Origin: Amoebophrya sp. A120
Lineage: Eukaryota; Protista; Dinoflagellata
Length of the DNA: 64,000 nucleotides
Direction: 5' to 3'
Assembly (NCBI GenBank): GCA_905178155.1
Contig: CAJINV010000016.1
Location: 644,259-708,258 of the forward strand
Each line of letters starts with the position of its first letter. Within the stretch, counting starts at the first letter, position 1. Of this stretch, positions 4,226-63,435 are shown piece by piece. Under the pieces are notes generated by a model. That model saw nothing but the letters and a program-made list of their open reading frames with translations. It searched no databases and was not told where the DNA came from. Made by a program: the position numbers and the translations under genes.

Positions 4226-4340
4226 ATCTTCCAGATCCTCCATTCCGTCAATCGCGGTGTACTACACGACGCACTTTCATCATACATTTCTATCTACTTT
4301 TTTCATCGACATGCTGAATTCATCTTATCCAAGTCAAAAG

Positions 4341-20800: not shown

Positions 20801-20965
20801 GTTTTGGAAAATGAATTTCTCCAATTCGTATGAATGCAATTGATTGTACTGCAAGTGCGATACTTTTGCAATGCATACGGGAACACCGGTGGCAATGCGT
20901 ACCTGTCCGGAATGAACGCAACGATGCACAAATCCAAGTTCTTCAAGAAGAGCAGCATGCGATAA
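17853..20965 (+). CDS. MOK: MOK/RAGE (LF4-like) CMGC Ser/Thr kinase
   Basis: [100 protein letters not shown]; mixes introners with GT-AG introns (18610-18704, 18866-18989, 19387-19542, 19791-19950); C-terminal exons less certain. Confidence 0.92.
17941..18225. mobile_element. Introner, family B
   Basis: Family B TIR; DR GTACG/GTGCG; joins GRY|VAIK. Confidence 0.92.
18331..18502. mobile_element. Degenerate introner
   Basis: TAT...ATA ends; DR AATAT; joins HANI|ITLHEV. Confidence 0.82.
19057..19317. mobile_element. Introner, family A
   Basis: Family A TIR; DR TGTCT; joins RAPEC|LLTDG. Confidence 0.94.
20691..20877. mobile_element. Introner, family G
   Basis: TIR core AAAAGTATCG; DR CGGGA. 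Confidence 0.85.
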
Positions 20966-38100: not shown

Positions 38101-41100
38101 ATCTACGCCGACCTGGGCGGAGAGCGTGCTCCAGGTAGAAATGCAGCGGGCGGGAGTATTTTTGACAAAAATGGAGCCGCGTCCGAAAGGAGCGATAGTG
38201 CTGGCACGTCGAAAGATTCTGCGGCAGCTCGTGAGTCGTCCACCAGGAAAACGACGTGGACGCTGGCGGGGAATTTAGGCGTATCCGCCGCGAATCAGTT
38301 CCGGGGTAGTCCGGGCACGACCTACGTCTTTTCCGCCGTGCCGCATTCGGGGGATTCCGTCGGGAACCCCGTTCGGTTCGTGTTGTCTGTGCCCTTTTCG
38401 AATTCCCTGATTCTTCGTTACTACGGCCTTTTGGTCATTATCGTGCATAGCCTGCTGACGCTGTTTCTCATGGCCGGGCCCGTCTACGCGTTTTCCAGGG
38501 GGGCGAGTTTGCGGGTCAGCTTCAACCGGCTGCGACGGGTGATCGGCGCCAGTGGGCAAATTGCGTTGACGGCAGTGGCGGTTTTGGGCAAGGGCGCGCT
38601 TTATATCCCAAAAAAAAGAGCACGCAGGGCATATTTGTAAAGCAAAAACAAATACACAGAAGAATCCGCATTGCGCATTTTCAACAGCATCCTATGCTGG
38701 GCTCCCTCATGATAGATTTGTCTGTTAATTTTTTCTGTCATTACACTGCCTGCCCTTTTTCGTGGGATACTGTACGGGTGGGTCCTGCACATCTGGGCGA
38801 CCGAGCAGAAGTCTCCCTACATCTTCGTGTTTCTTGGAATAGACGTGACTGCCGTTTTATGCAAAAAATAAAAATGCTTGCAAAACAGTATCGACGCGGT
38901 AGTAAAGAAATTTTTGCATTTTACAAAAGTAAATTTTGTCACACGATGAAAAAATAGAATTTGTGATGCTGACTGAAAAACACCCAAGACAAGAGGTGGC
39001 AATTATGTACGGGAGATTTATTGTGATATGCATAAATTTCAATCAAGTACTACCACGTCGGTACTATCAGATACAACTTTTGCGCAGCATGCGTTTGTCT
39101 CTTCCTCGCGCGACGGGTGGTAGTTCAAATGGCGCCGTCTATCAAACGTAAAAATGTCTGGGTCTGGAAAAGTACAGACTTGTCATGCATATTTTCCATG
39201 ACCCATGAGGGGTGGAATGCGGGACCTAGCATCACAGACTCTGCGAGGTCTCTGTCATGCCTGTCTTGCGTGGGAAACTCCCTCCCAACTTGGTCGAAAG
39301 TAGACAGCTTTTGGCGCTCGTGCAACACAAATTTTTGCATGCTTCGAATTTAGCATGACAAGTCTACACTTTTCCAGACCCAGACATATTTGCAATGCAT
39401 ACCGTCCTTTTTCTCGCAATCTGCCGCGGAGTCTAAGGTTGAATCGGAGATCCGCCGCATTGTTGCAGTGGGAGCGCAGCAGGAGATTATGGAATGCACA
39501 TATGTCTGGGTCTGGGAGACTGCAAGATTTGTCATGCTAATCTGGCATGACTCTGAACTCTGTATTGCGTGGCCGCAAAGAGCTCCGCCGGCCTGTCATG
39601 CAAAGGCGCAGGTTCTCATGCTGAGTACGCAACTCAGAACCACGGCAAAACTTGTCATGCTGTGCAGCGCATTGCAGTTTTTTCACTATTCCTTTCCTTG
39701 CATCACAAGTTTCCAGACCCAGACACATTTGCATTTGATAGAGATTTCCAGACTGCAAGCCCGGTTGCTGAACACCTACTTTCAAATTGCCAACTGCCAC
39801 GAGCAGGAAAACAGCTCCACGGTGAAGTTCCTCACCAAGGAGATTGTGAATCAGTTGCAGTACCTGCAGGCACACTGCCTGGAGACGCAACAAGAGCTGG
39901 CTCTGCGGTTGAAGGAGGTCCAAAAAGCGTACAGCACCACGTATCCGCAGGAGTGGGCCCGGCTCCTGCAGATTCCGAGCCGGTCCCTTGGCCAGGTCGC
40001 GCAGCCGAATGGGGGCTGTGTCTGGTGGAAGCAGAGAACTGCGGGCAATCTTCTGCCACCGCAAAATGCATCGGCCCCAAGTCGGCAGGGAACTGAGGAC
40101 GCGGAAGTACCCTCCTCCTCGCCAGGGGCGGGACAGACACAGAAGAACCCGAGCACGGCACTACAGGCGATGAAGTTCGTGAACTTTGATACGACGGAAA
40201 TTTCCGAATACCAGTCGGATACGCGGCCGACGAAGTGGCAGCAGCAAATACTGCAATGAAAAATGCCCCCACCCCCGACTTAGGAGCACTTGTATTGCAA
40301 GTCTTTCCAAACGAAACATTCGCCTTCTTGCATCTATCAGCATCACAGGTTTCTTATCGTGAATAGCAAAAATTTGTATTGCAAAAGACTCCAGCAAGAA
40401 CGGCGCTTGTCATGCAGGCGATGCGATACACGCCTAGACTCTGCATCAGAAAGATTCATACTCCTTTCAAGCATGACAGAAAGTTTTCATTTGGAAACTT
40501 CGCATCACAAATTTTTGCAAGTTTGGGGGTGGGGGCGTTTTTCACTGTAATAGCAAACCGTGGCCGATTTGGTGTCCGAGCTGGAGCTATCGTAAGGAAA
40601 AATCCCCCATATATCGAAAAGTAGGCACACCGCATAAAATTTGCCATGCTGATTTGTGACCACAGATCGCGGCCCCGGTCTTGCAAGAAGGCAACCCCGC
40701 AGGCCCCGCAGCATTATGTAGGCGGTTTGTGATGCTATTGGGCCTACAGCATAGACGTTTTCCGTGCTAAGCACCTAGGCCAGCACCTCTCTGCTCCGGC
40801 TTGATATGATGGGCCTGCAGTCATGTCCTCTACTGCACTACAAATTTGATTTGTGTATACGACTCCAGCATCAGAAGCCTCGTTTTGATATGGGGAGGGG
40901 GGATTTATTTTCCTCTTGATAGTCTCGGCGGGGGCTCGGAACCGTGGGTAGCAGTCGGCGGGACCGGCTGACCTTCTTCGTGTATCAAAGTGAAAAAAGC
41001 CCCCACCCCATATCGGAAACGGAAGACGCGCGAATTTGTGATGCTGTATTTGAGTACACAAATCGACTTGTATTGCTAGAAGGCCAAGAGACGAAGCTGC

Positions 41101-44924: not shown

Positions 44925-47900
44925 ATGTGTAGCCACGTAGAGAAAATACCGATGCTATCAAGAACCGTGAGCGAGACGAATCCGCACGGTGCGGTGTTGC
45001 CGCCGGGGGCTTTGGACGATCTCAACCTCCTCCCGAGTAGTAAAACTGGCAGCGTCAACTTGGCGGGCCTAGACCAAAACGAAAACTCCTTGTCGTCCTC
45101 GTCAACCTCCTCCGTGAATAATAATTTCGGTTGTAGTACTAGTTCGGCGTCGTCATTATCCCAATCGAATAAGCCCGTCAACAAGCCACCGCAGTTGAAT
45201 ATCAATTTGATTAACCAACAGGAAAACAGCACCTCGAGCACGAATGACACGACGAGGAGTAGCAGCTCCTTTATGGAGCAGCACACCACGACCTCCAGTG
45301 GAGGTCTTACTTTCCCGGGCAGCAATTTGACTACGCCCAGTAATCAACCACACGGAGCTGGGAACAACTTTTGTAACGCAGCTGGTTCTACTTCGAGTGG
45401 CACGCCATCGGGATCGGGACAGGGAATAAACACCTCCAACTCGTCGTCTTTGTTTGTGTCCAGTTTGAACAGTTTAAACAACTCCGTGGTACCGCGGACG
45501 AAGCAGATTTTGGACCTTTTGCTGAATATAGGCGGTGGATCTACCACTTCGGGAGGAATATCAAATGGCGCTCCTGAGCGACCTAGCGGTTCAATACCAG
45601 TACACGGGGCCGCGACCGGTTCGACTCCGAGTACTATACCGGGGGGTATGATGGGCGGGGGTCAACAGCAAAATCTTGATCCGCTTCTAGTAGAACACCA
45701 AAATGCTGCAAGCGGTGCAACGTCCTCGGGGAATAACCACAGTGTTCCTGCTTTGACCCAGCTGAGTCAAGTGAACCAACAGAATATCAACCTGCAGATG
45801 ATGCACATGCTGAACCACAGCGGGGGTGGTGCACCTTGTTGTAATCATGCCAATCTACCCAATGGCTCTACCGGAGGCGTTCTTGGACAACATTCGCAGC
45901 AGAATCTTCAGCCGCAGATGTTGAATCAAGCGGGAGCATCAATCAATTTCCTAGCGACCACTTCCGCGAGCGTGGTCGAGAACGCGCCACTTGAAGGAAT
46001 AATGACTCAGCAATCAGCCGCGCCGCAAGCGCAACAGGCAGCTGTAGTCCAGCAGCAGCAGCACCAGCAGCAGCAGCAGCAAGTACCACACCAGCAACCG
46101 ACGCCTTCGCAGTTCGTGCAGTTTCAACAGCCACCGCAATTCATCACAACGCAGAATCTTCAGCCACCAATGGCCAACACGAGCGCCACCGTCGGGACGT
46201 TTGGGTCCTTTGAAAGTCTGGAGCAGATTTGGTCACAGCTGAACGCGGCCAATTTAGTCCCGCAGAATAATGGGGATGGCGGTGCTGGTATGACAAGTGC
46301 GCAACAGCAGCAGCAGCAGCAGCAGCAGCAAGGGCTGCAAATGAATTTGAACCAAAACAGTTCCAACTTGTCGCAACATCATCCTACACAAAACATCGTG
46401 AACAATCAGCAGCAAAATCAGAACGTTCTTTTCGGAAACCCGCAACCTGGTGGGAGCAACAACATCAACATCAACCCTTCTTTCGCCCTGAACCAAGTCA
46501 GCCCGTTATTGTGGCAAACGCCGAATACGACCGGGTCGCACAATCATCGAACCACTTCCGCTGACTCTCTTTTCGAACCCTCGCCACAGATGCTGAGTTC
46601 TTCGGGGGGGATGTTGAGTAACACGAATGATTTGATGAACCGCACCTGCATATTGAGAGGAAAAATTCCCCCTCCCCATATCGAAAAGGTATGTTTCCGA
46701 AAATTTGTCTTGCTGATTTAAGACCCCAAATCAAGTCTGTCTTGCAAGAAGACAACTCCGCAGGCTCTGCCGCACTATGCAGGCGGTTTGTCATGCTGTT
46801 GGGCCTACAGCATAGACGTCTCTCATGCTAAGCGCCTAGGCCGAAAGTTCTCTACTCAGGCAGGGCAGGAGCCTGCAGTCCTCGCCAGCAAGACAGATCT
46901 GATTTGAGTACGCAAATCCAGCATCAGAAACTTCGTTTTGATATGGGGAGGGGGGATTTTTCCTTTTGATACTGCAGCTACGACAGTGGCTTCACAATGG
47001 TGAGTTGCCAAAGCTCCTTCCACCCGCAGCAGCAGCAGGGAACAACGATGAACCAGGGGACTAATTTTTCTGCAGGTAATATAGTACAACCTCCGGCGAG
47101 TCGTGGTTCCTTTTCTTCTAATGTTTTCACCAACGTGAACCTACTGATGGAGCAGCAGCAGGAGCCTCTGGCGGGACCATTTTTACAACAACCGATGGGT
47201 CGTTGTACTAGCGGCGGATCTAGTGTAAAAATCGGGGATCATCAATTACAAGCAGGGGCCGGAGCGGGACACTTGGCTGCAACCGGGACAATCAATACTG
47301 GGCCGCCAGCAACAGCAGCGGTCGCACCCTCCAACCTGAACTTGAATCTGTTCAGCCCACCGATATTAAACGGGACAAGCAATCCTGTGAGCCACGGCAT
47401 TGCTACGAATGGGACTCCGATGAATTCCTCGGAAATAAGTAGGAGCAACATCGCCCGAGAACCTCCGCAAGGTGCCAACCCTGAAGCAGGTGGGGCGGTA
47501 CACCCGCAGTTTGTGCTGAACTTTGGAGAAACTATCAACCAGAACAATTTCTTTCCCACGCCCGATACCACCCCGGTGAGCCACAACAGCGGTGTGCACA
47601 TCAACAACCACAGCGGTTGTGTGGATCTGAACTTGAACGTGGTTGGGCCGGCGCATCATGGCAACACAATTACCGGAGGGCCAGTAGCATCACAGGCTCA
47701 CCATGCTTGCGGCGCCGGTCCTGGTTTTGGTGCGCCTCCAAATCCTGTAGTGCTAAACCCGCAGCCAGTTTTGTGTCCTGGAAATAGCGCTAGTGGGGCG
47801 GCCACGGAGGGTACTTAGTTCTAGATGGGGTTATTGAAACAATGCCGGTAGAAGTGGCACACTGTATGAACTATTTCTATTTCGTGGATGTGGGCCTGCA

Positions 47901-50900
47901 TAATTACTTGCTCTGGCATGTTGTTGATGCCGTGTGCCTGAGTAAGTGTACAGCGGACCACAGCGACATTCACGACCTACTTCATCAGGTCCGAGTGCAC
48001 CAGCTGGTGTGCCGACGCTCTGTGCCTACCAAAGAGCTACAGCTGATGAAGAGATTGCAGAGAAGAAAACTACCGGTGTTGGTCCTCATGGTGCAACGGC
48101 AGGATCTTCGGCTATCAAAAGGAAAAATCCCCCCTCCCCATATCGAAAACGAAACTTCTGATGCTGGATTTGAGTACACAAATCAGAATTGTCTTGCTGA
48201 AGAGGACTGCGGGCCCGCATCAATCCTGAATAGAGAGGCTTTGGCTTAGGCACTTAGCATGAAAAACGTCTGCGCTGTCGGTCAAACAGCATTACAAACC
48301 GCCTGAATAATGCGGCGGAGCCTGTGGAATTGCCTTCTTGCAAGACAGAGATCATTTGGGGTCGCAAATCAGCATTGCAAATTTTCTGCGACGTACCTTT
48401 TCGATATGGGGAGGGGGAATTTTTGCCCGCGATATCGGCGAGAAGTTCCTTTGGGGATCATCCCGGAGAACAAGAGCAGCAGCAGCAGAATTACAACGGA
48501 CGCAGTTCTTGTTTCCGAACGCGCAGCGGCCAAGGTAGGAATTACAACCAGAACGGGTACGGGAATGGGAATTCTGGTGCCACCTATCTATCGCAGAACT
48601 CATCTCACAGAACTACCGGGATGATGGACAAGGTACGGGTACTACTATTAGCCGTGAGCAACTTGGTACGGTTATGCAATTTTCATTCTGGTCGCCCCGT
48701 CTTGTCGATCCGGAGGTTCGTGCTGTTTCGAGGATCTGTATCTGATGAATGTAAAAATTCAAATCCAAATACAGCCCGTGTCCAACAGCAACGAAGCAGG
48801 CTTTACTTCCCGCTCTGAAGACCACTACACTCAGCGCAATTATCATCAGCCAGCTCGTTTCCATCCGCGGACAACCGGTGCCACCAGCAGCAGCGCGTCT
48901 TCTGCGGCAGGGAATCATCCTAACATGAGTCGAGTCTTCAGCACGCCGATGAAATCCGGTGGTCCAGCTTCACGTCAAAACACTGCTGCCTCCAAAAATC
49001 GTGATGAACAAGATGTTGACAAAAATCTCTACCGTGAGTTTTCGCCGAAGTCCAAGTGTGAGCAGCAGAGAGGCGCCGGGGTGGGAAGTACTACGAGTGG
49101 GTCGTTGTCCAATGCGGCCGGTAGAAGTGAGCGAGAGCTGGCGCACGACCCAGATCGCAATCTCTACGCGCCAAAGCACGGAGCGACGACTGATCGCGGA
49201 GGTGGATGCAGTGGTGCTTCGGCTTCGACCGGTGCTGGCGCTAGGTCTACTACTTTCCAGCAAAATAATGCAGCGGGTCGTGCAGGGATTGCAATTGCAT
49301 CTGCAACTTCTTCTCGACGTGGATATCTGGATAATTCTGAGCAGCAATCCAGTCAATCGAACCTCCAGAACGAGCCGAAAAATTCTTGCCACAACACGAC
49401 GACACTGCTCTCGACGTCTCTCATCGCTTCCGCGCCGACCGAAAACTTGCAGCACCATTTGCTTCAGTTCCAAACGTTTGAGCTGACGTTTCCAAAGCAC
49501 AGGGCTCCCTTACCGACTCACCCAACTTTCAAACGGATTTTTATGCGGGACGAGCAGGACAACAGCAAGATTTTGTCGGATTCGGAGATTTGCTCTATCG
49601 CGCAAAGTGAGCCGGAAGTGTTGCAGTGGGTCCTGTACCAGGCGGCGGTGAAGGGGGTTATATGCACTGCAAAAGTGTCTGGGTCTGGAAGGTTGGAACT
49701 TGTCATGCTAAATCTGAATCACGCAAAAATCTGTGTTGCATGAAGATTGCCAAATGCTGCCCACTTTTGATCAAGTTGAGAGGCAGTTTCTCATGCAAGA
49801 TAGGCATGGTAGTGATCTCACGGAATCTGGCATGCTAGGTCCTCCATTACAGATCATATGGGTCATGGAAAACCTGCATGACAAGTCGAGCAAAGTTCCA
49901 GACCCAGACACTTTTGCATTTGATAGGTTACTATGCGGGAGAACTCGGGTTCGGTCGGCTTGCCGGAAAGAAATTTGACGTCTCTCACTGCTCCTGGAGC
50001 ACGCAGTCACACATCGGGAAAAGTGGAATCTAGCACGGGAGCACGCACTGGAAGTGCAGAAAAGGAGGCAAGAACTGCGGTAGAGGACAAGGAGAAAATC
50101 GATACAAATTCATCTTCGTTGGCACCCTCTTCTTCAAAACAAAAATTCCAAGCGTTTCCGACTTTTTTCGAAGATGAACGGGTAGAGGCGGTGATGCAGG
50201 CCCTGATTCGCTCCTCGGAGACTGCGTTCTTTGACCTTGCGGTAAGTGCTTACCACTTCGAGGTGTACTTTCGCTGCTTTCGCTGTTTTGATCATGCGCA
50301 ACATTCTTTGGAAAGCACATGACTATGACAGCATTCATTTCCTAATTGCGATTTTGCATCATTTCTAAATCTTTGTTAAAACTCAGTCCGGCGACCGTCA
50401 GCAGGTTGTCGGCCGGCGGAACAACTTACTGCAACTCATCTTGGACATAATCGTTGTGCAGAACCGGAAAGACGATCTGCGTCACTTACTGCAAGACTTG
50501 CGGAAGCGGTTGCTGCAGCTTTCCAAGCAGGAGTACGCGGCGAGGACCATACAGAAGCTGATCGAGTGCGTGGGGCTGGTCACCGAGAAGAGCTTGGCTG
50601 CAACTTCTACTTCTTCTCATGCAGGAACGTCAAATAGAGAGGAGATACCAGCCGGCATGCAGAAACTATCAACAGAAGAAGCAGAGCAGCCGGGCTTCTT
50701 CATGGATTTCCTGAAAGAGTGCATCGACCAGGAGGTTGTAGAGGGGATGTTGATGACTATCGGGGGGTTATCAACAACATCTTCTTTGTCAACATGCGGG
50801 GGACCACAGGCACTAGAGAAGAAGAACAAGATCCGCATTGCCAATTGCCTCATGGTGAATGAGCACGGTATAATAGTACAGTTTGCTCCTTTTCAGCAAC

Positions 50901-53900
50901 GTTCCTTTTGTTGAAACCTCTCGGGCCCGCTTTACAGACAGGGGAAGAAAGTTTGATATTTCTTCTATTAATAGATTGATTCGTACTGCGTTGATCTTCT
51001 TTGCAAAACAACTACAATAAAAAGGTCACCACATCCTGCAGCGTATCGGGCGGCTTTATGCGGAATCCGAGTTGATCCGGCAACACCTGCCCGCGCACCA
51101 AGAGGGCAGTTACCTGGTGGACTACATGAAGGATACTGTCGCCTACCTCTCGAAGGACAAAAATGCCTGTTGCTACCTCCAGAAAATCTGCGCCTCGGTC
51201 GCGACGGAGGCGCAAAAGCAGTGGATCGAGCGGGAAATCTTGGGTGATTGGCTCGCGATTTGCCAAAGCGAGTACGGAAACTACGTAGTGCAGAACCATT
51301 TGGAATTGCGGGGGAAGGAGATGATGGCACTTTTCATCTCGCAGGATAGGAACTACAAAAGTTCTTGTTCATCCTCTTCTACCACTTCGTTGGAGAAGGA
51401 GGAGGCGCAGAGGACGACCACGGAGACCACAAATAAATCCGGGCCAGACGAGGCGGAGCAAAGCTGCACATCATCTCAAAAGGGAGCTGCATCAAGTTAT
51501 ACGATCTCAACTTCGTCAAGCTACTTCGCCAGGGAGCTGGTGGACAAGATTTTGAACGGGAGTGGTATGGAGAACATGAAGGTGCCTGCTCCGCGTGGTC
51601 GTGTGCAGCAGGGTTCCCCCATGGAAGGACAACCAAGCCAGCTTGGTTCCTCGTCAAGTGGATTTTTAACATGTCACCATCCACAACAGCGCAACCTGTT
51701 CCACACCCTGGCCTTTCAGAAAGCGAGCTCCAATGTGCTAGAGAAATTGCTGGAGAATTTACCGCCAGTTTTTACAACCGCACATGAAGTGGATGAGCAG
51801 GATGATCTCCTTACCCAACTAGTTCTCCACGGTTTCTTCGCGCATCTGGTGAATGCGGACGATGTTTTTGGGAACAGGAAAAACAGCAGCACAATAGAAT
51901 CTGCGACACAGCAGGGAGTTCTTGCACAGGAGCAAGCAGCGTCAACACAATCATACGCTTTGATGTCATCTTCAGCACAAAGTACAACATCAAACAGAAA
52001 GCAGCGGGCAAACGAGCTTTTCTACGAGTATTTCTCCAACAGCTACAGCAATTACGTGTTGCAGAAATTGCTGAAAATCTTGGCATATCAGATGTAAAAA
52101 TGTCTGGGCCTGGAAGAGTGCGCGATTTGTCATGCAGCTTTTCCATGACCCATGAGGTCTGGAATGCAGGACCTAGCATGACAGATTCTGTGCGATCTCT
52201 CTCATGTCTATCCTGCGCGAGAAACTCCCTCCCGACTTGGTCAAAACTAGACGACTTTTGGTAATCATGCAACACAGATTTTTGCGTGCTTCAGATTTAG
52301 CATGACGCGTTGCATTCTTCCAGACCCAGACATTTTTACATTTGATATGGCAGGAGCGGCTGCATCGTCTGGAACGTCATCCGCTTCGAAAAATATGAAT
52401 AAGGAACCAAACGCAAACCACCACGAAGTTCTCTTCCAGTTCCTCATGAAGAATTTCGTCGTTCCCTGCGTCTATTCCGAGTACGAAAGCGCGACGTGGA
52501 ATTACGAGGAAAATTTGTGGAATTTGAAGTCCGTGTCCACGAAGCTTGTCCGGAGTTACGGTGTTTTTTTCTCGGTAGATTTAATCAACAACTGCCAGAA
52601 GATTCACCACGCGCAGGCGCGAAAACGGCGGGAACAGGAGGGTGTAATTGCGGCTGCGATGGGGCCGTCGTACTATGGTAGCGGCGGTGGTGGTGGGCGT
52701 GGTCGTGGAGATCAACACAGCGGTCCTTCTGCTGGGGGTCAACAACATCTTCGCAACTACACGGGTGCTGCCACCGCAAGCCAACATGGTTATCAAAACC
52801 GTCATCGACCACAGTATGCTCACGCGAGTAGCAGTTTCGGAGTGGTCGCAGGCAGTGCAGCTATGGCGGGAGCCGGGCCTGCATCCACTCTGGGCACCAG
52901 CGGGCAACATGTCGGAGGAGGAGGAGGGGGACATCACGGGAGAAGTAGTGGCAACATGGTAGGGGCAGGAGGATCTACTACTTCCCTAGGAGCTTCTGGA
53001 TATGGACAAGCATACCATCACAATTCCGCTACATCCACCTCGGCTCAGCACAATTTTTACCACCACCATCATCACAGAGGAGGTGCTCAATCCGCCATTG
53101 GCTGCAGTGCTGGAACTGCAAGTAGCAACAGATACAGCACCCGGGGAGGAGGTAGTTCCGGGGCAGCCGCGCCAGGTGGAACATCAAGCCTATGAAATGT
53201 AAAAGTGTCTGGGTCTGGAAGAATGCGCGATTTGTCATGCAGCTTTTTCATGACCCATGAGGTCTGGAATGCAGGCCCTAGCATGACAGATTCTGTGCGA
53301 TCTTTCTCATGCCTATCCTGCATGAGAATCTGCCTCCCGACTTGGTCAAAACTGGACGACTTTTGGTAATCATGCAACACAGATTTTTGCATGCTTCAGA
53401 TTTAGCATGACAAGTTGCATTCTTCCAGACCCGGACATTTTTACATTTGATAAAGCCAACTACAGCACCACTATCTGCAGCAGCAGCTGAGGAATCTGCA
53501 GAATTGTAACACTTCGTCTTCTGGTTCTGTGTTCCACCGGGGTGGAGGTGGTAGTACTAGCAGCAACTTGCATGCGATGCAAAACTGGGACCACAACCCG
53601 CGGGAACATCACCAGTCTGATTTTTACCAACAACCAAAATCCTACTACGGGCACGGCAACAATAACATCAGCCAGAGCTCCTGCAGAACTACTACGGGGG
53701 GCAGTTTTCTTAATATCAAAAGGAAAAATCCCCCCACCCCATATCAAAAAGAAGTTTCTGATGCTGGATTTCAGTACACAAATCAGATTTGTCTTGCAGT
53801 AGAGGGCTGCAGGCATATGCCCAGCCTGAGCCGCAATGTTTTGGCGTAGGCTCCTAGCATGAAAAACGTTGATGGTGTAGGCCCAACAGCATCACAAACC

Positions 53901-54379
53901 GCCCGCATAATGTGGCGGATTCTCTGGATTTGCCTGCATGCAAGACAGACTGGATTTGTGACCACAAATCAGCATTACAAATTTCGAAAAGCACACCTTT
54001 TCAATATGGGGAGGGGGGATTTTTCCCCACAATACTTAATACTTTCTCGGGCAGCTGCAGTAGTTCACGCAGCGCGATCGGAGGAACGTCTAGTAACCAG
54101 AACCACCAGGAGCAGCTCGTCCAGTATAATTTCTCTACTGACGGCGGCAACGGTTCTTACAAACAGGACGCTAGTTGTCAACAACATTCTACGACGAGCT
54201 GCAACCTGATCGAGCAGCATCAAGGTAGTTCGAACCAATTTCATTCACACATGATGGTCAACGGAGTGGGGAAAGCGAACTACTACAACAACGGGAATGC
54301 AATGCACAGCGAGAGTTTGTCCGCGGTCCATCTCCAAAATCAGATGAGTATCCAGCGAAATATTAACCAGATACGGTAG
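44925..54379 (+). CDS. Pumilio/PUF-family RNA-binding protein with long Q/N/S/G-rich disordered regions
   Basis: PUF-like repeats LLQLSKQEYAARTIQKLIE, LSKDKNACCYLQKI, ICQSEYGNYVVQNHLE, LAFQKASSNVLEKLLE and FSNSYSNYVLQKLLK; exons joined across 6 introners and GT-AG introns. Confidence 0.82.
46651..46971. mobile_element. Introner, family C
   Basis: TIR core AGGAAAAAT.CCCCCTCCCCATATC; DR CTGCA. Confidence 0.92.
48113..48434. mobile_element. Introner, family C (opposite orientation to 46651)
   Basis: Family C TIR; DR TCGGC. Confidence 0.92.
49661..49925. mobile_element. Introner, family A
   Basis: Family A TIR; DR GGTTA. Confidence 0.93.
52086..52347. mobile_element. Introner, family A
   Basis: Family A TIR; DR TGGCA; joins KILA|GAAA. 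Confidence 0.93.
53191..53452. mobile_element. Introner, family A
   Basis: Family A TIR; DR AAGCC; nearly identical to 52086-52347. Confidence 0.93.
53714..54034. mobile_element. Introner, family C
   Basis: Family C TIR; DR CTTAA. Confidence 0.92.
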
Positions 54380-55049
54380 CAGGAGCAGGAGGTCGCTTGT
54401 GAGGAGTGGAAATTATGGGTAAAGCGATGTTGACCAACATCCCGGATAAAGATCCACGACTCCGGATTGCTCTGTCTCCAAGATGAAACTGTGTCATTGA
54501 GAAGCAGAGGGAGACACGCTGTCCTTTGGCAGTAGCAAATTTATTGTGTAAGATAGTAAGATAGGCCGAAGTAGCAATAGCAAGAAGAAGCACTCTCCTG
54601 ACCAGTAAGGAGTAGAACCAAAAATTACGATGCGTGTATGATTGGCAGTGAAATAAAAAACAACGACCGAGAAAACAAGCACTTACTACCTGTATAATGA
54701 AGAGAAAATAAGTCACAATTTAAAAGTCTCATGCTTTCATAGGAGCTTTTTTCGTTTTCAGTTTTGACAATTTTGCCGAACAAGTTCATGGAGTATCAAT
54801 TTGTGTGCAGCTGCAGTGGCACTCACACGAACAAGATGAAAAATCATAATAGCGAGCTACTGCATGCATTTTCATTCTCTTCAAGTCGACCGACCGAGTG
54901 GTCAACAGTGAGTATAACAGCAATTGATGACAGAGGTACTTTTGGGGGAACGCACAGCTAAGTCATCTCAGTACTTAGTAGATTTTTCATATTAGCACGG
55001 ACAAAAGTTAAAATAATTCTGCATAGTCCTTCTTTCTGCGACCATTTTT

Positions 55050-56078
55050 TTGACGCCGAACCGCTGCTGCGCCGCGCCCGAGTGCAAGTTCTCCGTACCG
55101 GGGAAGCGCGCCGGCGAGAGCGTCAACTACGCACGGGACTACGACTCGCGACCGATCTCCACCAACGCGGACTACCGCATGTACGAGGTCCGACACCACG
55201 AGAACGCCTGCCCCCTGGTGCAACAAGTCAGTGCGAAACGGTGGCCGGCCACCACGCTGGCGGACACTGACCTAAACGTCACGGGGGAAGTGCGCCGTGC
55301 AGTAGAGGCGTGCACAGGGGAGCTCGATAAGAAGGGTAAGCCCACGGAGATTGCAAAGCTAATCGACTTCACCGGGCAGGCGAACATCTTGCGCGAGATC
55401 GAAACCCCAGAGCAGCCCGCGCAGGACCTCCAGACTGAGTATTGCAACATTGTGAGAGAGGTCTGCAGCTGGTCGGACTTCGACATCACGCCGGACCTTC
55501 CGAACCTGCCCGAGCTGTACGCGGACTCCACGTTGCCCCGCCCCCGCAGCTGGCGGATCCGCGAGATCAGGTGTGCGTGCATCCCCTGTCTCCGAACAAA
55601 CTCGCTTAGGCCGAAGAAGCTTGGCTCACTCCGCCTCGCGTTCATCCACATGCGAGTCAACCAGCAGCAGGCCACAGAGGAAAAGTTTGCGGCGGCGTTT
55701 GCACCCCCGCCCCCGCCACCGCAGCCACAAAGACCGCTGCCAAAGCGCAAGCACAATGACACCCCGCCGCGGGTCAAGCAGGCGCTCGAGCTGCGGGGGG
55801 CAAGCAAGTCCCTCCCGGCGGGGGTCACTTACAACAAGAAAACGCAGAAGCTGTTAGTGACGGTCCGAGTGAAGATGGACGACGACGGGGAGACCTACCC
55901 ACTGAGCAAAGTGGTCGACCCGGAATTGTCCGCAACGGCCGAGGAGGCGCTGGAGGCCGCACAGCAAGCCCGCAAGGACGTGCTTGCGAACTACCGCGAG
56001 CGGGTCGACGCCATCCGGGCGCAACGCGCGCAGCGAGCTGAGGCCCCCGCCCCGCCGCTCGGGGGTCTCGCACAATGA
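55050..56078 (+). CDS. Intronless GC-rich ORF with Cys motifs and a C-terminal AP2-like DNA-binding domain; possible mobile-element-derived gene or fragment
   Basis: 342-codon open frame; RCACIPC motif; LPAGVTYNKKTQKLLVTV...AEEALEAAQQAR resembles the AP2 three-strand-plus-helix pattern; listed start is TTG. Confidence 0.5.
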   Translation: MTPNRCCAAPECKFSVPGKRAGESVNYARDYDSRPISTNADYRMYEVRHHENACPLVQQVSAKRWPATTLADTDLNVTGEVRRAVEACTGELDKKGKPTEIAKLIDFTGQANILREIETPEQPAQDLQTEYCNIVREVCSWSDFDITPDLPNLPELYADSTLPRPRSWRIREIRCACIPCLRTNSLRPKKLGSLRLAFIHMRVNQQQATEEKFAAAFAPPPPPPQPQRPLPKRKHNDTPPRVKQALELRGASKSLPAGVTYNKKTQKLLVTVRVKMDDDGETYPLSKVVDPELSATAEEALEAAQQARKDVLANYRERVDAIRAQRAQRAEAPAPPLGGLAQ

Positions 56079-56977
56079 AGTCGAAGAAAGGAAAGAATTT
56101 GTTCTGAAATTGAAATCAAGAGGTTCTTCACGGTGAAGTTCCTCAAATAGACTCCTCATTTTGAGTAGAAGTCTCGCGTACTAAACGCGAACACTGTAAA
56201 CTGTAAACTGTAAATGGCTCTGATTCGCATTTCGGATAGAGCATCAAGTTTTAGCGTATGCCGGGTTGGTTCCAGAATACTGTGGAAGTCCTCGGTAAGA
56301 GCGGTCTACTTTCCCAGGATCAAGAAAGAAACTGAAGTTTACAGGTCTCGAGTTCGAGAAAAAAAAAAGCAGTGTTGCGCAGACTGTCCTACTTCTCGTG
56401 GGGCAGCTGCAGGCTGTCCTGGTTTCTTTAGTTTTAAGTACATTCATTCAGCGTCCGCGTTCTTCTCCAATAGGGCCATGCACGAGCAGCTGCCTAGAGG
56501 ATCTTCATTTGACCACACAATGTAGAGGCCCAAAACCAAAAGTAGTTGCAGGATCCATTTACAAGTCTATCGAAGCAGTATGAAGCAACGCATTTTTGTT
56601 TCCAACGCAGAAGAAGATCCGCCTCCGAGCCTCACAACTTGCTTACTGCTTGGATTTGCGAACGATCTGGTGTCAGTCTGTTATTTTGATGAACACAACT
56701 ACTTTATCCGCCATTTTACTAGTTTTGAAGCGAAAAACAAAGATCACGTGAGCTTTCTATCGAGTAAGGAAACTTCTCTCAAAACAACGTAAAATAAAAG
56801 CACATCAAATAACTTGTGTTGGTCACTAGACAAGTATAGGAGACGAAGCGCGATAGTACAGCGAGCAATTATCAAGCTCGTAAGCACGCCCGTTTTACTC
56901 TACGCAGTACAACGAGCCCGTTGTTTCCACCTAAGCTACTCACAGTATCCTCAACACCACCGAAAAAGAAAAGAGCC

Positions 56978-59900
56978 ATGGATGTCACGCTGGAGAATTT
57001 CGATCAGCTCTTGCCGGTCATCGAGCAAGAAATCGAGGCTGCGGACTATATCAGCATCGATTTGGAGATGACGGGAATCCGCAACCCGAGTGAAAAACCG
57101 AGCTATTTTCTGGACTTGCCCAACATTTTGTACAAGAAGAATCGGGAGATCGTGAACGCCTTTGACATCATGCAGATCGGGATCTGTTGCGTGAAAAAGC
57201 AGAAACATGATACGGCAACCGGTCGTACTTCAGGTGGAAGTCCATCAAGCAAAAATTCCCGTGACAACTCACCTTCGTACAAGCTCACGCCCTTCAACTT
57301 TTATGTGTTAAAACGATCCATAGACCGGATCCAGAAGACCCTGGTGACGTTGGACACGGAAACGCTGATGTTTCACACGGAAAACAAGTTCGACTTCCAA
57401 AAGTGGCTGCAGTTTGGGATCGGGTTTTGCGACTCCAAAATCGAGGAAATGCTGATGGCGCAGTTCCGGCAGGAGGCGGCGTCGTTCCAGAGCATGAGCG
57501 AGGCGCTGGCGGGGTTATCCAAAGATGCAAAGAATAATGAATATCGACGCAATTTGACGTTATTATTGACGGACCTGCTCTTGTAAGTACATGCTTTATT
57601 CCAGGATCTTCCCACTTTGCAACTAGAGCTAGACCACACAAATTATTTCGGTCTGTCTGTCGTGCAGCGAAGATATAACTCAGCATGCAAAACCGCACAA
57701 GAAGAAATAGTTTTCTCACGAATAAGTAAGTGGGTGTGTCTGCTCGTCACGTATGCAGATGTTCTCGTCTTTATGCGATATTGATAGGGGGTTTTTCGAA
57801 AATTCCATATGCTACAGCCCAGAACAACAAGAAGCAAGACTTTAACGTCGGTGGCGGAATCACGTTGGAACGGAAGGATGACCGCGACTGGTTCGAAAAT
57901 CTGTGGACCAGCGAGATCAAGCCTTTCTTCGACAAGGAGAACAGCAAGACCAACCTATCAAATGTAAAAATGTCTGGGTCTGGAAGAATGCAACTTGTCA
58001 TGCTAAATCTGAAGAATGCAAAAATCTGTGTTGCATGATTACCAAAAGTCGTCCAATTCTGACCAAGTCGGGAGGGAGTTTCTCATGCAGGATAGGCATG
58101 AGAGAGATCGCACAGAATCTGTCATGCTAGGTCCTGCATTCCAAACCTCAGGGGTCATGGAAAAGCTGCATGACAAATCGCGCATTCTTCCAGACCCAGA
58201 CACTTTTGCATCTGATACAACCCGGAGGAAAACAAGTTCAAGCTGCCCAACATGAACGCGTTTTATCCTGAGTAAAAACGTCCCCAGAGTCAACCTGGGG
58301 ATTTTGCAACACAAACCTAGAAGTTTTGGGACTCACGCAACACAAGTTGCAGTCCGTAGTGTAGTGCAGGTTAGCAACGACAAACGCATCACAAATCCAT
58401 CTGCTTATCCTGGTTACAGCATTACAAATCGCAAAACATGACTAGAAACGCCTCTCATGGACGAGATGCGCAATACAAATGTTCCTGTCATTGCAAATCT
58501 GCATCACAACTCTGGGGTTGTAGGGACGGTTTTACAAATGATACGTTTCGCGCCAAGTTTATCCGCCAGCAACTGGCGCGGCAGTATCCGGACTCCTACG
58601 TCGACTCCTACACCGATTCGCAAGCGCAGTATGCGTATCAAATGCAAATATCGATCTGGGTCTGGAAGGATGCGAGGTTTGTCATGCGCATTTTGCATGG
58701 CCCCTAATGTCCTCTGTGATGCATTCCCTAGCATCACAGATTTTGTGATGGCTTTCTGATGCCTAGACTGCATGAGAAATGCCCTCTCGCCGTCGCAAAA
58801 ACTGGACCTCTTTTGCTGTTCGTGCAACACAGAGTTTTGTAGAATCCAGATGCAGCTGCATCACAAGTTGCATCCGTCCAGACCCAGATCGATATTTGTA
58901 ATGCATAACGCGCAAACGCAGAGGGTAGTGTACCGATCCGTCACCTTGCAGGAGAAGGAGAAGCTGGAAAAGGAGAAGACGGACCGGGAAGTGCGGAAAT
59001 TCGAAGAGCGGAAAAAATCTATCACACAGAAAATGTTGAAAATGATTGAGAAGTTTGTGCTAGTCCGTTTTGGAATACTATTTGATTATTCCTCGCTCTC
59101 GAATTTCAATTTTGTTTTGGTGCGCCGCTACGGCGCACCAACTTTGTTGCGGCGCAACGACCTTTCTGGTGCCTATCAGATGCCCGGCGCAAGAACTGTG
59201 TCCGGCGCTTATCTCTCTGTCCGGCGCCCAGTGTCTAGCGCCTATTTATTTATGTCCTGCGTCTGTTTTTCATTTTCTGGCGCCTCGCTTCCGGCCGCCT
59301 TATTTTCCTAGCGCCAGCCTTTTTAGTGTCCGGCCTCTTTTTCTCTAGCCATGTGCGGCGCCTTTTGTCCTCGCGCCTCCTTTGTTGGCCTCGCCTGGCG
59401 CTCGTTTGTCCGGCCCCTTTTTAATACCTGGCTGGCCATCCAATGCCCGGCGCCTTTTTTCTTCTGGCGCCTCTATCATCCTAGGCCGCCAGTTTTCATG
59501 TTCGGTGATGAGAGCACCGCGCAGAACCGATTGGTTTGTCGGATCGTCGGGGTTTTTCCCTATACCTGTTTTATACAATTTTTCTTTTGGAGGTCACTAG
59601 CACTGGCCTAAAAGTAAAATTCGAGATTTCAAGAAGTAGACAAAAGGGGCGGGCGAGCAAAAATTATATAAGCCTTTTCATCGCAAGAGTTCCATATCCC
59701 ACCTCCGCGCGCGCGTCGGGTTCCGGCACATTTGGTCAAAAATCAAGCTGAATGGCTGCCCGGTGATACTCCACAATGGGTTTTTCGACTTGCTTTTCCT
59801 GTTTCACAACCTCGAAACCCCGTTGCCCACTATCAAGTGCAAAAATGTCTGGGTCTGGAAGAGTGTAGGCTTGTCATGCAGATTTTCCATGACCCATGAG

Positions 59901-62900
59901 GTCTGGAATGCGGGACTTAGCATGACAGACTCTGCGAGGGCTCTGCCATGCTTATTCTGCATGAGAAACTCCCTTCCAACTTGGTCAAAAGTGGACAGCT
60001 TTTGGCACTCATGCAACACAGATTTTTGCATGCTTCAGATTTACCATGACAGGTTGCAATCTTCCACACCCAGACATTTTTGCAGTTCATACCCACCGAC
60101 CTGAAGCACTTCCGGCGCGAGTTTGTGAAGCGGGTTCCGCTATGCATTGCAAATAAGTCTGGGTCTGGAAAGTTGTGATGCTAATGATCGCATGATGCGC
60201 GGCAACCTGTATTACGTGGCTGCGCATGACAAGTTTCTGAGCGGCCATGTCTAGCGTTAATCGCATGAGAAATCATCGCCTTTTTGCATGACAAACAAGT
60301 CACGCTGTAGCACAACAAGCATGACAGACTTTTCTGTCTTGTCGGCCAAGCATGACAAACTTACTTGCACTCTTCCACACCCAGACATGTTTGCAAATGA
60401 TACCCGAACCCGATTTTGGACACCAAAATCCCGTCCGACGTCTATTACAGTGAAAAGTGCCCCCCACCCCCAAAGTTGCAAAAATTTGTGATGCGAAGTT
60501 TCCAAATGAAACCTTTTTGTCATGCATGAAAGGAACATGAATCTTTCTGATGCAGATTCTAGTGTTGTTTCGCATCGCTTGCATGACAAGCACCGCTCTT
60601 GCTGGGATCTTTTGCAATACAAATTTTTGCTATTCACGATTGGAAAGCTGTGATGCTGATACATGCAAGAGGGCCAATGTTTCATTTGGAAAGGTTTGCA
60701 ATACAAATGCTTTCAAGTTCGGGGGTGGGGGCATTTTTCATTGTAATAACGTCGACCTGAAATTGAAGTACGGCGAGCAGGAACTGCCGTTTAGCTCCTT
60801 GGAGGAGGTCCACAACCTGTTGACGAAGTTCCACCCGGAGTTTATCGGAAAAAGGTTCAGCGTGGTGAAATCTCTGCAGGAGTTGCAGAAGCAGTACTTG
60901 TATCAAATGCAATGTCTACTTTGTGTGTCTACTTTGTCATGCATCTCATGGATAATTGCCTCGGTGGTCTGGAATGCACAGAGGAGCAATGTCACAGATT
61001 GCACAAGGGCTTCTTAATGCCTTGTACTCATGAAAAATTCGCGTTCTTTTGCGTAAGCAAGAAGTGGGCAGGTTTTGGCGTAGTTCCTGCAACGCAGATG
61101 TTTTTGCATTGGATCCAGACTCGGCATGAGAAGTTGCACAATCTTTCCAGACGCAGACACATTTGCAATGCATAGCTTGGAACTGAACGGCAACACCGCC
61201 GAAACCGCAGGAGCGGGGGAAAAGCTTGTGGCTGCGGATCCAATACTTCCCGAGGACGAGAAATACCACGATGCCGGCTTCGACGCCTTGCAAACGGCGA
61301 AGGTGTTTCTCGGCCTGACCACGCAGGAAAAATTTACCTGCGAGCCGAATGTGTTGCCCTTGTCTGGGCGACACCTTTTCCGGGTTCTGTTGCAGCAGGA
61401 CAGCGTCACGAGCAATGGGTCCGCAAGATTTGCTGCAGAATCGTCTGAGCTTCATCATAGCGCAGGGCTGGAGCCGCCGGTGCAGCGGCTGATCCCAGAT
61501 CCGAGTGTGGAGGAGAGGAACAATATCAAAAGGAAAAATCCCCCCTCCCCATATCGAAATAGAAATCTGTGATGCGGGATTTGTGTACACAAATCGGCTT
61601 TGTCTTGCAGTAGAGGACTGCAGGCAGATACAGAGCGGCAGGAGGGGCGTTGTGGTATAGCCGCCTAACAAGGCAGGCATATCCTCCGCAGGCCGTGCAG
61701 CATTACAAATTGCCTGCGGAACGCGGCCAGGTTTTGGGATTTGCCTTCTTGCAAGACAGAGACGATTTGTGGTCTCAAATCAGCATCATAAATTTTCGGG
61801 AGTATTCCACTTTGGTATGGGGAGGAAGGATTTTTCTTCACGATAAACAAGGGGGACAAGAAAAACAAAAGAATTTCCCATGTGAAAGTGTTTTATGCAA
61901 CATGGAGAAAAGACTTTCTCTCTAGCATTATCGTATACAGCTACAACATGAAGTGAGGCTGGTGGCGATTTTTTGCATTCTCTACTAGTACCACTGGGAA
62001 TTATGAAATTTGTGTCTGTCGATGTTGTATGTAGAGCTGTGGACCAAGAAAATTAGAGTGCGATGACGCAGTTTCTTTTCGCAAGTTGTACATGTTCCTA
62101 CGGTTATCGGTAGTCTTTTCCCGCTCGATACTTCTGCCAACATCACGAACGTTGGGCTTACTCAGGGCGCAATGAGTGGCAACAACCAGGCGAACTCGCA
62201 GTCCCAGCACCAACAATCGTCCAACTCGCTCGCCCGGCTGGATTTCAACGCGATGCAAACCGTTCTCGGGAAGGTCCTCGGGATGGAGGAGAATAAATCG
62301 CTGCAAGCGAGTAATTTCACCCTCCAGCACTTTCGCTTTCTGCACGAGGGAACCGCACTTGCCGTGATTGAGGAGGACGTGTATGATGGTGGTCTTCATG
62401 CTGCCGGAACGTCAGACAAAGGGACCACTACAACGACAACAAAGGCCAGCACGTCGACAGCAGGGACAAGCTATCAAATCGGCACCCTGCTAGACAAGCT
62501 GCAGCATGCGTTCAAAACGGAGAAGAACTTTCACTTCAACGTCTGCGAGCTGCCGGAATACGAGGACGCCATTGAGTCTTCGTTATGAGAAGTAGAGCAC
62601 ACAAGAGTTATTGATTTCCTCCCGTCCTACTTGTTTGGAGGGCCTGAGCAGCAACAGTCTCTGCATGGAAAATCGAGCTTCTGTATGGAGTGTAGTACTG
62701 TTTAGATGAATGGTGCATAGAATGATGCAGTACTACTTGTGACACAGGCATTAGCGAGAGTTGGGGTTCTTTTGCATGGCAAATGATTGGCATTAGGTGT
62801 GTTTTTGTGCTCTTCCATATTCCTTTGTCTCCGTCTCCAAGGATCACGCTTCCTCGACGAAAAATTCGGGCACGAGTGGAGCAGGAGGGAACACCAAGCC

Positions 62901-63435
62901 CGCGATGACCGCTGGAACGGCAAATCATGTTGGAGGTGACCATAGTACGACCTCCTCTGTGATGAACTTATCTGGTGGCGACGTGGGCAGCAGCTCCATG
63001 GATCGCACGCGCAGCAGTGCGACAGATGGTCGGGGCGGTGGCTCGCAGTACCAGGAGCGGGTTGGGAACGCGAGCATCCTCGTTATCGATGAGGACGTGG
63101 ATATGTTGACGAAGCCAGCGACCACAGCTGGGGGAATGACGAAGAAGGGCGGTAAATCTTCGGAGCAAAACCAGAATGGAAAAAATACGGAGAACCAGCA
63201 CACCAAGAGCGAGTCGAAGGAAAATGACAGGAACAACATCAGCCACAAGCCCGCGTTGTATCATAATCACAACAAGATTTTTCTGACGAAGGTGGAGAAA
63301 ACCAATATCATCGGGAATTTCGGCAATAACTTCAATCGCGGAGGTGCCGTGAAGACAAATCGGCACGTGCCGGAAGTCAGCGGAGAAAACTTGCTGTTCT
63401 ATCCACCGGCAAAACGGCTGAAGTCTTCGGAATGA
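56978..63435 (+). CDS. PARN: Poly(A)-specific ribonuclease PARN / CAF1-family DEDDh deadenylase
   Basis: MDVTLENFDQLLP...YISIDLEMTGI (ExoI), MQIGICC, PFNFYV, FDFQKW, VGFRHIW...VILHNGFFDLLFLF (ExoII), ILDTK, YHDAGFDALQTAKVF (ExoIII); C-terminal extent inferred through a degenerate introner at 62584-62819. Confidence 0.9.
57956..58217. mobile_element. Introner, family A
   Basis: Family A TIR; DR CAACC; reverse complement of the 53191 copy. Confidence 0.93.
58264..58543. mobile_element. Introner, family B
   Basis: Family B TIR; DR CGTTT; joins MNAF|RAKF. Confidence 0.9.
58636..58907. mobile_element. Introner, family A variant
   Basis: IR CAAATATCGATCTGGGTCTGGA; DR ATGCG/ACGCG. Confidence 0.9.
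59020..59696. other. Long non-canonical intron in PARN, probably a degenerate introner with a GGCGCC-rich insertion
   Basis: Separates EERKK from SHLRARVGFRH; starts TATC, no GT-AG; exact boundaries uncertain. Confidence 0.5.
59831..60091. mobile_element. Introner, family A
   Basis: Family A TIR; DR CCCAC; joins PLPT|DLKHF. Confidence 0.93.
60141..60402. mobile_element. Introner, family A
   Basis: Family A TIR; DR TCCGC/CCCGA; removal restores PILDTK. Confidence 0.88.
60443..60748. mobile_element. Introner, family D
   Basis: Family D TIR; DR ACGTC; reverse orientation relative to 40249. Confidence 0.92.
60901..61174. mobile_element. Introner, family A (diverged)
   Basis: DR ACTTG/GCTTG; joins KQYL|ELNG. 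Confidence 0.85.
61524..61845. mobile_element. Introner, family C
   Basis: Family C TIR; DR AACAA. Confidence 0.9.
62584..62819. mobile_element. Highly degenerate introner
   Basis: TATG...CATA ends with residual IR (AGAGCACA / TGTGCTCT); DR TTCGT/TTCCT; joins IESS|FVSVS. Confidence 0.7.

What the first reader, a model, noticed from the sequence alone, without database searches (positions are those of the whole stretch)
46651..60748. Near-identical introners work in both orientations
Seen: family A copies at 52086, 53191, 39140 and 59831 are reverse complements of those at 57956, 35459, 49661 and 19057, and all sit in plus-strand genes. PARN contains both orientations. Family C (46651 vs 48113) and family D (40249 vs 60443) behave the same way. 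Established: ordinary spliceosomal introns are polar (5' site, branch point, pyrimidine tract). Inference: all necessary signals lie in the symmetric TIR stem or symmetric motifs.
Basis: seen in the sequence. Interest (0 to 1): 0.8.

Follow-up and report, generated by a model that had tools for sequence, protein, structure and literature searches.

The report
Two-way introns with one cut rule
Short transposon-like introns of the algal parasite Amoebophrya are cut out of the RNA whichever way round they sit, and every junction that could be placed fits a cut one base before and four bases after their mirror-image ends, likely because each end supplies a stripped-down splice signal that a relaxed spliceosome reads in order.

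Summary
Real. These are the known introner elements of Amoebophrya A120 (Farhat 2021): TAT...ATA inverted ends, 5-nt target duplication (TSD); window exons match deposited A120 proteins at 100%. Copies of families A, C and D lie in both orientations in plus-strand genes (reverse-complement identity 79-95%, so 'near-identical' is overstated). RNA-like contigs skip element+5 nt for 22 elements, covering both orientations of all three families. All 16 families with 3+ members occur both ways (window plus a second assembly). Either-orientation introners are already published (Aureococcus, Polarella), but with G-starting donors and AG acceptors; these need neither. Not found in print: 11 junctions with decayed TSDs share only one register, N|UAU...AUA|NNNN. 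There +2 U (268/268) and -7 A (267/268) hardly vary, whereas their pairing partners do, and three spliced copies have no predicted terminal stem. Best reading: symmetric ends are read in a polar way (relaxed donor, branch A at -7, fixed-distance acceptor), rather than through the stem alone. The branch point is inferred; splicing efficiency was not measurable. New variant; interest 0.55.

The parts
46651..46971 (.). Family C element, orientation opposite to 48113, in PUF gene; TSD CTGCA
   Evidence: removal indirect: ORF repair, and X1 record 3 resumes exactly at 46972
48113..48434 (.). Family C element in PUF gene; TSD TCGGC
   Evidence: joint 48107>48435 in a contig that also skips a GT-AG intron
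49661..49925 (.). Family A element, orientation of 57956, in PUF gene; TSD GGTTA
   Evidence: joint 49655>49926 in 3 of 4 runs
52086..52347 (.). Family A element, other orientation, in PUF gene
   Evidence: joint 52080>52348
53191..53452 (.). Family A element, orientation of 52086, in PUF gene
   Evidence: joint 53185>53453
53714..54034 (.). Family C element, orientation of 48113, in PUF gene
   Evidence: joint 53708>54035
57956..58217 (.). Family A element in PARN, reverse of 52086
   Evidence: joint 57950>58218; absent from deposited protein
59831..60091 (.). Family A element in PARN, orientation of 52086
   Evidence: absent from deposited protein CAD7969284.1; no joint among those displayed
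60443..60748 (.). Family D element in PARN, reverse of 40249
   Evidence: joint 60437>60749
40249..40552 (.). Family D element (5' TAC variant) in the 2677-aa gene
   Evidence: joint 40242>40552 in 4 of 4 runs
39140..39401 (.). Family A element, orientation of 52086
   Evidence: joint 39134>39402 in 4 of 4 runs
35459..35720 (.). Family A element, orientation of 57956
   Evidence: ORF repair; not inside a laid stretch
19057..19317 (.). Family A element, orientation of 57956, in MOK-like kinase gene
   Evidence: absent from deposited A120 kinase P0004; removal restores sequence shared with the A25 orthologue
40588..40921 (.). Family C element, orientation of 46651, decayed TSD; register 4 or 5
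   Evidence: joint 40586>40926, both=1
42614..42812 (.). Decayed element ending ATG; register 4 or 5
   Evidence: joint 42612>42817
43276..43603 (.). Element ending ATG; register 4-6
   Evidence: joint 43274>43608
57516..57809 (.). Decayed element in PARN, no predicted terminal stem; register exactly 4
   Evidence: joint 57514>57814, both=0, short side 27 nt; deposited protein allows 3 or 4
59020..59696 (.). Decayed, enlarged element in PARN, TSD fully decayed; register exactly 4
   Evidence: only joint reproducing the deposited peptide in the range scanned
60141..60402 (.). Element in PARN, decayed TSD; register 1-4
   Evidence: joint 60136>60404
60901..61174 (.). Element in PARN, no predicted terminal stem; register 1-5
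   Evidence: joint 60896>61176
61894..62130 (.). Decayed element in PARN; register 4 or 5
44952..54379 (+). PUF-repeat gene, 2340 aa, 4 GT-AG introns and 6 elements (A and C each in both orientations)
56978..63432 (+). PARN (CAF1 family) gene, deposited as A120 CAD7969284.1, 904 aa
22745..43862 (+). 2677-aa gene of unknown family with 38 elements and 1 GT-AG intron
   Evidence: 12 of its element joints displayed
17853..20962 (+). MOK-like kinase gene with elements 17941, 18331, 19057, 20691 and decayed ones at about 20229 and 20455

Best explanation
These non-autonomous TIR elements (TAT...ATA, 5-nt target duplication) are removed from the RNA in either orientation, every placeable junction fits the intron N-UAU...AUA-NNNN, and this is likely the work of the host's relaxed U2-type spliceosome reading each symmetric end as a polar signal. 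Shown: removal of element+5 nt in both orientations; one register; no GT or AG needed; target site unbiased. Inferred: TAT fills +2 to +4 of the host's usual donor (GTAT, GTAC, GTAA in this window) with +1 free; the near-invariant A at -7, after a U run at -18 to -15, would be the branch point; the acceptor would be set by distance instead of AG. Each end is the reverse complement of the other, so inversion recreates the same 5' and 3' signals. The long stem would be a by-product of transposon symmetry that may help but is not predicted to be required. Insertion by a cut-and-paste DNA transposase acting in trans is inferred from TIR plus TSD; no transposase was found.
For: Skip = element+5 nt in 20 of 20 catalogued elements with a displayed joint, plus 2 decayed ones. 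One contig skips a GT-AG intron and 48113 together, and junctions at decayed TSDs mix left and right copies (60141), so this is splicing, not empty alleles. Eleven junctions with imperfect TSDs (6 from contigs; 5 from deposited proteins) all allow register 4, and only 4 is common; two fix it alone (57516, 59020). In 268 strand-oriented elements: +2 U 268, +3 A 266, -7 A 267, -6 pyrimidine 268, while -5 varies in 7 and +4 in 8; in the second assembly alone 9 of 10 variants at these two pairs fall the predicted way (one-sided p = 0.011). +1 is any base, AG ends 23 of 268. 57516, 60901 and 42260 are spliced with no terminal pair in the predicted fold. G-U versus A-C mismatches in the stem are even, 331:303. 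Farhat Table S4: all 9 leading A120 border types have T second, and all 9 of A25 start TT, whose repeats begin TTA. A120 keeps U2, U4, U5, U6 but no U1 was detected.
Against: No lariat, branch point or spliceosome dependence was tested. N-U-A and A-Y carry little information, so something more must mark the introns; the 'stemless' copies keep 11-14 of 20 complementary positions, so a weak stem is not excluded. Young copies fold into -118 to -126 kcal/mol hairpins that bury both motifs. Variant counts are small, the hypothesis was formed on the window's 8 variants (whose catalogue was partly found by TA-start scans), position 2 shows no polarity (2 vs 3), and 3 copies break the rule (L003:2872 -7 G, L024:3000 +3 G, L045:4548 +3 T). 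The match to a YUNAY branch consensus (recalled) is partial: U at -9 in 136 of 268. RNA evidence is contigs of one sample, guessed to be RNA; 57516 has a 27-nt short side. Two short joints inside elements (58286>58490, 59860>60217) and two element-to-element joints are unexplained, probably other copies mis-laid. Deposited proteins come from gene models, not direct reads.
Confidence: 0.55

Rival explanations
1. The terminal stem is the ruler: pairing of the inverted ends brings the exons together and the spliceosome (or a new U1-replacing factor) cuts 1 nt before and 4 nt after the base of the stem.
For: Strong hairpins in both orientations (z about -10); 19 of 22 RNA-confirmed copies have terminal pairs in the predicted fold and all keep 11-20 of 20 complementary positions; a stem would supply the missing specificity.
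Against: Three spliced copies lack a predicted terminal stem; no excess of G-U over A-C mismatches; U-C at +4 and A-C type breaks of the last pairs are tolerated while +2 U and -7 A are kept.
Confidence: 0.22
2. A non-spliceosomal, structure-guided nuclease and ligase removes them, as proposed for euglenid nonconventional introns.
For: Same anatomy as euglenid introns (non-canonical ends, TIR stem, TSD; review PMC11282704); U1 not detected in A120; neither G at +1 nor AG is needed.
Against: The conserved bases fall at donor positions +2/+3 and at a branch-like A, and they match the host's canonical donors; the same N-UA register appears in A25, whose repeat starts one base earlier; Fritillaria's non-canonical introners are reported to need the U2 spliceosome.
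Confidence: 0.18
3. The skipped forms are not splicing but DNA alleles without the insertion, or mis-laid contigs.
For: Runs X1-X4 are only guessed to be RNA, come from one sample, and no DNA run was laid; element+TSD is also what an empty site lacks.
Against: The same contigs skip GT-AG introns; junctions at decayed TSDs are left/right mosaics; exon letters match the window almost without change; deposited proteins agree.
Confidence: 0.02

Closest known systems
Amoebophrya A120 introner elements (Farhat et al. 2021, PMC7789003)
   Same: TAT-N7-AAA inverted repeats, 5-nt direct repeats, about 260 nt, non-canonical borders, many families; window exons are 100% identical to deposited A120 proteins. 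These are members.
   Different: In the sections, passages and supplement text I read, the paper says nothing on element orientation and calls the border position variable or unknown. Here orientation is free and one register fits all. Its figures (Fig. 3, S21-S23), which I could not see, and Table S4 may partly show the register.
Either-orientation TIR introners of Aureococcus anophagefferens (Huff 2016; seen only through PMC10228655 and the Roy preprint) and Polarella glacialis classes 2, 3, 6, 7, 8, 10 (bioRxiv 10.1101/2020.10.14.339549)
   Same: Non-autonomous TIR elements with TSD that make introns in both orientations, often with a mild bias.
   Different: Those carry or co-opt G-starting donors and AG acceptors and need a biased TSD (such as GHN6). 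Here the TSD is near background and GT/GC..AG is possible at any register in only 23 of 268.
Euglenid nonconventional introns (review PMC11282704)
   Same: Non-canonical ends, terminal stem, TSD-like repeats, MITE origin proposed.
   Different: No pyrimidine|purine junction rule and no CAG/CTG at +4 to +6 here; the offset is 1 and 4 nt; euglenid introns leave as circles, untested here.
Fritillaria borealis non-canonical introners
   Same: TIR-derived non-GT/AG introns in bulk, removed by a changed U2 spliceosome.
   Different: There the borders are fixed (AG-AC, AG-AT) and the target is biased (TAC); here both border bases +1 and -1 are free.

Membership tests
Amoebophrya A120 introner elements | Inverted repeats at intron ends starting TAT, then 7 nt, then 3+ A | tested here: met
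   5' TAT in 67 of 69 window elements; A at element positions 11-13 in 60, 62, 66 of 69
Amoebophrya A120 introner elements | 3-5 nt direct repeat over the exon-intron border | tested here: met
   5-nt TSD, perfect in all 12 named copies; decayed in older ones
Amoebophrya A120 introner elements | Removed from RNA at non-canonical borders | tested here: met
   22 elements skipped in contigs; G[TC]..AG possible in 6 of 69
Amoebophrya A120 introner elements | Repeated families of similar copies | tested here: met
Amoebophrya A120 introner elements | Host is strain A120 | tested here: met
   PARN and kinase exons 100% identical to deposited A120 proteins
Amoebophrya A120 introner elements | No internal transposase | tested here: inconclusive
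   Typical copies are 150-330 nt, too short; open frames in the four enlarged copies were listed but not searched against a family library
Huff-type / Polarella TIR introners | Intron made in either orientation | tested here: met
   16 of 16 families with 3+ members
Huff-type / Polarella TIR introners | One canonical site carried, the other co-opted from a sequence-biased TSD | tested here: not met
   TSD near background; +1 G 93 of 268, AG end 23 of 268
U2 spliceosomal intron | GT/GC..AG ends | tested here: not met
   only +2 U is invariant
U2 spliceosomal intron | Lariat through a branch A; spliceosome dependence | not testable with these tools
   -7 A in 267 of 268 is only a candidate; no raw reads of this strain could be laid
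Euglenid nonconventional intron | Pyrimidine|purine junctions and CAG/CTG core | tested here: not met
   +1, -1 and exon-end bases are free; +4 to +6 reads T-C/G-A/C
Euglenid nonconventional intron | Released as full-length circle | not testable with these tools
   needs total-RNA reads

The most novel reading that the evidence does not exclude
Amoebophrya runs a U1-less spliceosome that has dropped both the +1 G and the terminal AG and defines introns by N-UA at the 5' end and a branch A exactly seven bases from the 3' end. Any TAT...ATA transposon with a 5-nt target duplication is then a perfect intron at any site and in either orientation, which would explain the genome-wide invasion in A120 and, with the repeat shifted by one base, in A25.
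Probability: 0.4. Interest if true: 0.8.

Novelty: new variant of a known kind. Interest (0 to 1): 0.55.

Why it matters
How Amoebophrya removes the 60% of its introns that lack GT-AG, with no U1 found, was left open in 2021, partly because the target duplication hides the true cut. A single register turns that into sharp predictions: where the branch lies, which two bases matter, what U2/U6 should have changed. It would also show how far spliceosome chemistry can relax (no +1 G, no AG), explain why these elements need no target or orientation choice, and give a rule that fixes tens of thousands of ambiguous intron borders in the annotation.

Tried and rejected
No whole genome is held, so the genome-wide table was replaced by 173 loci of a second assembly (JACKZZ01; 276 distinct elements; 3 mis-delimited and 74 without a strand call were dropped, 199 kept, 108 of them with a coding junction). 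The run search listed no holder on record as RNA. Raw RNA runs X9-X11 laid only 20, 17 and 3 reads, all partial, so efficiency, strand and retention could not be measured. The CT..AC reading of 57956, which would put PARN on the minus strand, was rejected: Pfam and the deposited protein are on +. The GT..AG reading of 49661 (register 1) is a chance product of its TSD. The 289-codon minus-strand frame over PARN has no Pfam hit. The G-U versus A-C test was flat (p = 0.28). Rfam found nothing in the window. A representative-library search with one exon of the 2677-aa gene gave one weak hit and no deposited copy, so its 11 or so other decayed TSDs could not be used. Huff 2016 is not held. The third small PARN intron near 62583-62808 was not resolved. 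The scan's index had nothing for this genome and one unrelated note.
Full report
Observation. All 12 named positions start an element with TAT (40249: TAC), end in ATA and are flanked by a perfect 5-nt direct repeat. The window catalogue used for counting holds 69 such elements; four more decayed ones appeared later. The claimed inversions hold for the interiors, not only the inverted ends: trimmed interiors match 75-94% as reverse complements and 48-53% on the same strand, equal to shuffles. Full-length identities are 79-95% for family A, 84% for 46651/48113 and 89% for 40249/60443, so only a few pairs are near-identical.

Host genes and strand. Removing each element plus 5 nt yields single plus-strand frames of 2677 aa (22745-43862, 38 elements) and 2340 aa (44952-54379, PUF repeat; families A and C each in both orientations). 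PARN (CAF1 hits on +) is 100% identical to deposited Amoebophrya sp. A120 protein CAD7969284.1, which lacks all nine then-catalogued PARN elements, among them 57956 and 59831 in opposite orientations. Seven elements at 661-6862 lie in minus-strand genes.

Removal from RNA. Contigs of runs X1-X4 (one sample, RNA by guess) were laid on 44001-63900 (X3 only, 15 of 20 joints displayed) and 38900-50200 (four runs, 15 of 21 displayed). Twenty catalogued elements show a joint, and all 20 skip element+5 nt; two more joints turned out to be decayed elements (42614, 57516). Both orientations are covered for A (39140, 52086, 53191 versus 49661, 57956), C (48113, 53714, 61524 versus 40588) and D (40249 versus 60443). 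One contig skips a GT-AG intron and 48113 together. Four other displayed joints run inside or between elements with 22-28 nt sides; they are probably other copies mis-laid, but I did not prove it. Contigs show presence only, so efficiency and retention are untested. 46651 and 35459 have no displayed joint: X1 record 3 resumes exactly at 46972, and the 9160-nt X1 record 1 fits the fully spliced long gene by length (740 nt predicted and observed between its two displayed pieces).

Wider sample. A pattern scan fetched 173 loci of assembly JACKZZ01 that share these families at up to 97.5%. A detector that ignores the first three letters (42 of 42 window calls correct) found 276 elements. A codon model called the host strand correctly for 65 of 65 window elements in leave-one-gene-out tests and gave a call for 199 loci elements. 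All 16 families with three or more members occur in both orientations relative to the transcript. Family A is mildly skewed, 44:28 (p = 0.08), 39:21 in the second assembly (p = 0.03, uncorrected).

The register. A perfect TSD hides the cut; a decayed one shows it. Writing k for the number of left-copy bases kept in the mRNA, contig joints give 40588 {4,5}, 42614 {4,5}, 43276 {4-6}, 57516 {4}, 60141 {1-4}, 60901 {1-5}; deposited proteins give 59020 {4}, 61894 {4,5}, 17941 {3-7}, 20229 {4-7}, 20455 {4,5}. All 11 allow 4 and only 4 is shared. The intron is therefore N-UAU...AUA-NNNN. In these coordinates, over 268 elements: +1 any base, +2 U 268, +3 A 266, +4 U 260; U run at -18 to -15; -7 A 267, -6 pyrimidine 268, -5 A 261, last four bases free. 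The TSD is near exon background and AG ends 23 of 268. Canonical donors in the window read GTAT, GTAC, GTAA, GTGA, so TAT sits where the host's donor has its T-A.

Polar reading of symmetric ends. The outer pair varies only at the 3' side (0 versus 7), the third pair mostly at the 5' side (8 versus 1), the middle pair evenly (2 versus 3). The idea came from the window's 8 variants; the second assembly alone gives 9 of 10 in the predicted direction for the outer and third pairs (p = 0.011 one-sided), with three copies breaking the rule at +3 or -7. G-U wobble could explain the outer pair but predicts the opposite for the third. Young copies fold into very stable hairpins both ways, yet 3 of 22 RNA-confirmed copies have no terminal pair in the predicted fold, and G-U is not favoured over A-C across the stem (331:303). 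Residual complementarity remains in those three, so a helper role of the stem is not excluded.

Mechanism. Shown: orientation-free, target-free removal at one register. Inferred (0.55): a relaxed U2-type spliceosome takes N-UA as donor, branches at the A at -7 and picks the acceptor by distance; inversion recreates both signals. Rivals: stem as ruler (0.22), non-spliceosomal cleavage and ligation (0.18), artefact (0.02). Donor and branch consensus sequences used for comparison are recalled, not from a call.

What is known. Farhat 2021 (PMC7789003; I read the abstract, sections 10, 11, 12, 16, passages, and text searches of the one supplement; figures not visible) describes these elements, the TAT-N7-AAA motif, the missing U1, and says border position is variable or unknown. 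I found no statement on element orientation. Its Table S4 lists nine leading A120 borders, all with T second, which agrees with the register; its direct-repeat text and figures S21-S23 may partly anticipate it. Either-orientation introners are reported for Polarella and Aureococcus (Roy preprint, first quarter and passages; review PMC10228655, passages; Huff 2016 itself not seen). Gozashti 2022 and 2025 (passages) give no orientation result for A120 in the passages shown; their datasets were not read. Reviews and preprints on euglenids, Fritillaria and Hypoxylon were read as a section or passages. Seven searches found no paper giving orientation, register or branch point for Amoebophrya introners; subscription papers, including the final Roy 2023, are outside the library.

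Verdict. The combination of free orientation, free target and no G or AG at either border, with one fixed register and polar conservation, appears unreported and makes an open question testable. New variant of a known kind; interest 0.55.

Noticed in passing
window 22745-43862: One 2677-aa frame holds 38 elements and one GT-AG intron; none of its exons hits Pfam, and one exon found a single weak relative (E 5e-5) among 1.8 billion representatives. (An early notebook entry says 37; one search counts 38.)
   Followed up: partly
window 5854-6862, 13423-15126, 28623-31386, 59020-59696: Elements swollen by nested inserts (a second TIR element at about 13507-14902; one at about 28690-31175 full of tandem repeats) keep their ends, and their removal still restores the frame, so intron length up to 2.8 kb seems tolerated.
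   Followed up: partly
window 18331, 20229, 20455, 32835, 38858, 42614, 57516, 61894: Old singleton introns that have lost most family similarity still start N-TA and end A-T-A/G plus four bases; many 'singleton' non-canonical introns may be decayed introners under the same rule.
   Followed up: partly
window 8000-11600: Strand switch: two minus-strand genes (a TTL gene and an unknown 775-codon frame) lie left of it, only plus-strand genes right of it.
   Followed up: no
window 3671-4223: Tandem array of 26-28 nt units with a palindromic core, just upstream of the minus-strand TTL gene.
   Followed up: no
L003:2872, L024:3000, L045:4548: Three copies break the end rule in the called orientation (-7 G, +3 G, +3 T); two have a coding junction. 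Assembly error, wrong strand call or true tolerance is open.
   Followed up: partly
family A, window and JACKZZ01 loci: Mild orientation skew, 44:28 overall and 39:21 in the second assembly, like the bias reported for Polarella classes.
   Followed up: partly
window 49700-49743, 53786, 57956-57991: Three 2026 RNA runs under the same species label lay only on short pieces of elements and not on exons, so a different strain may share parts of these element families.
   Followed up: no
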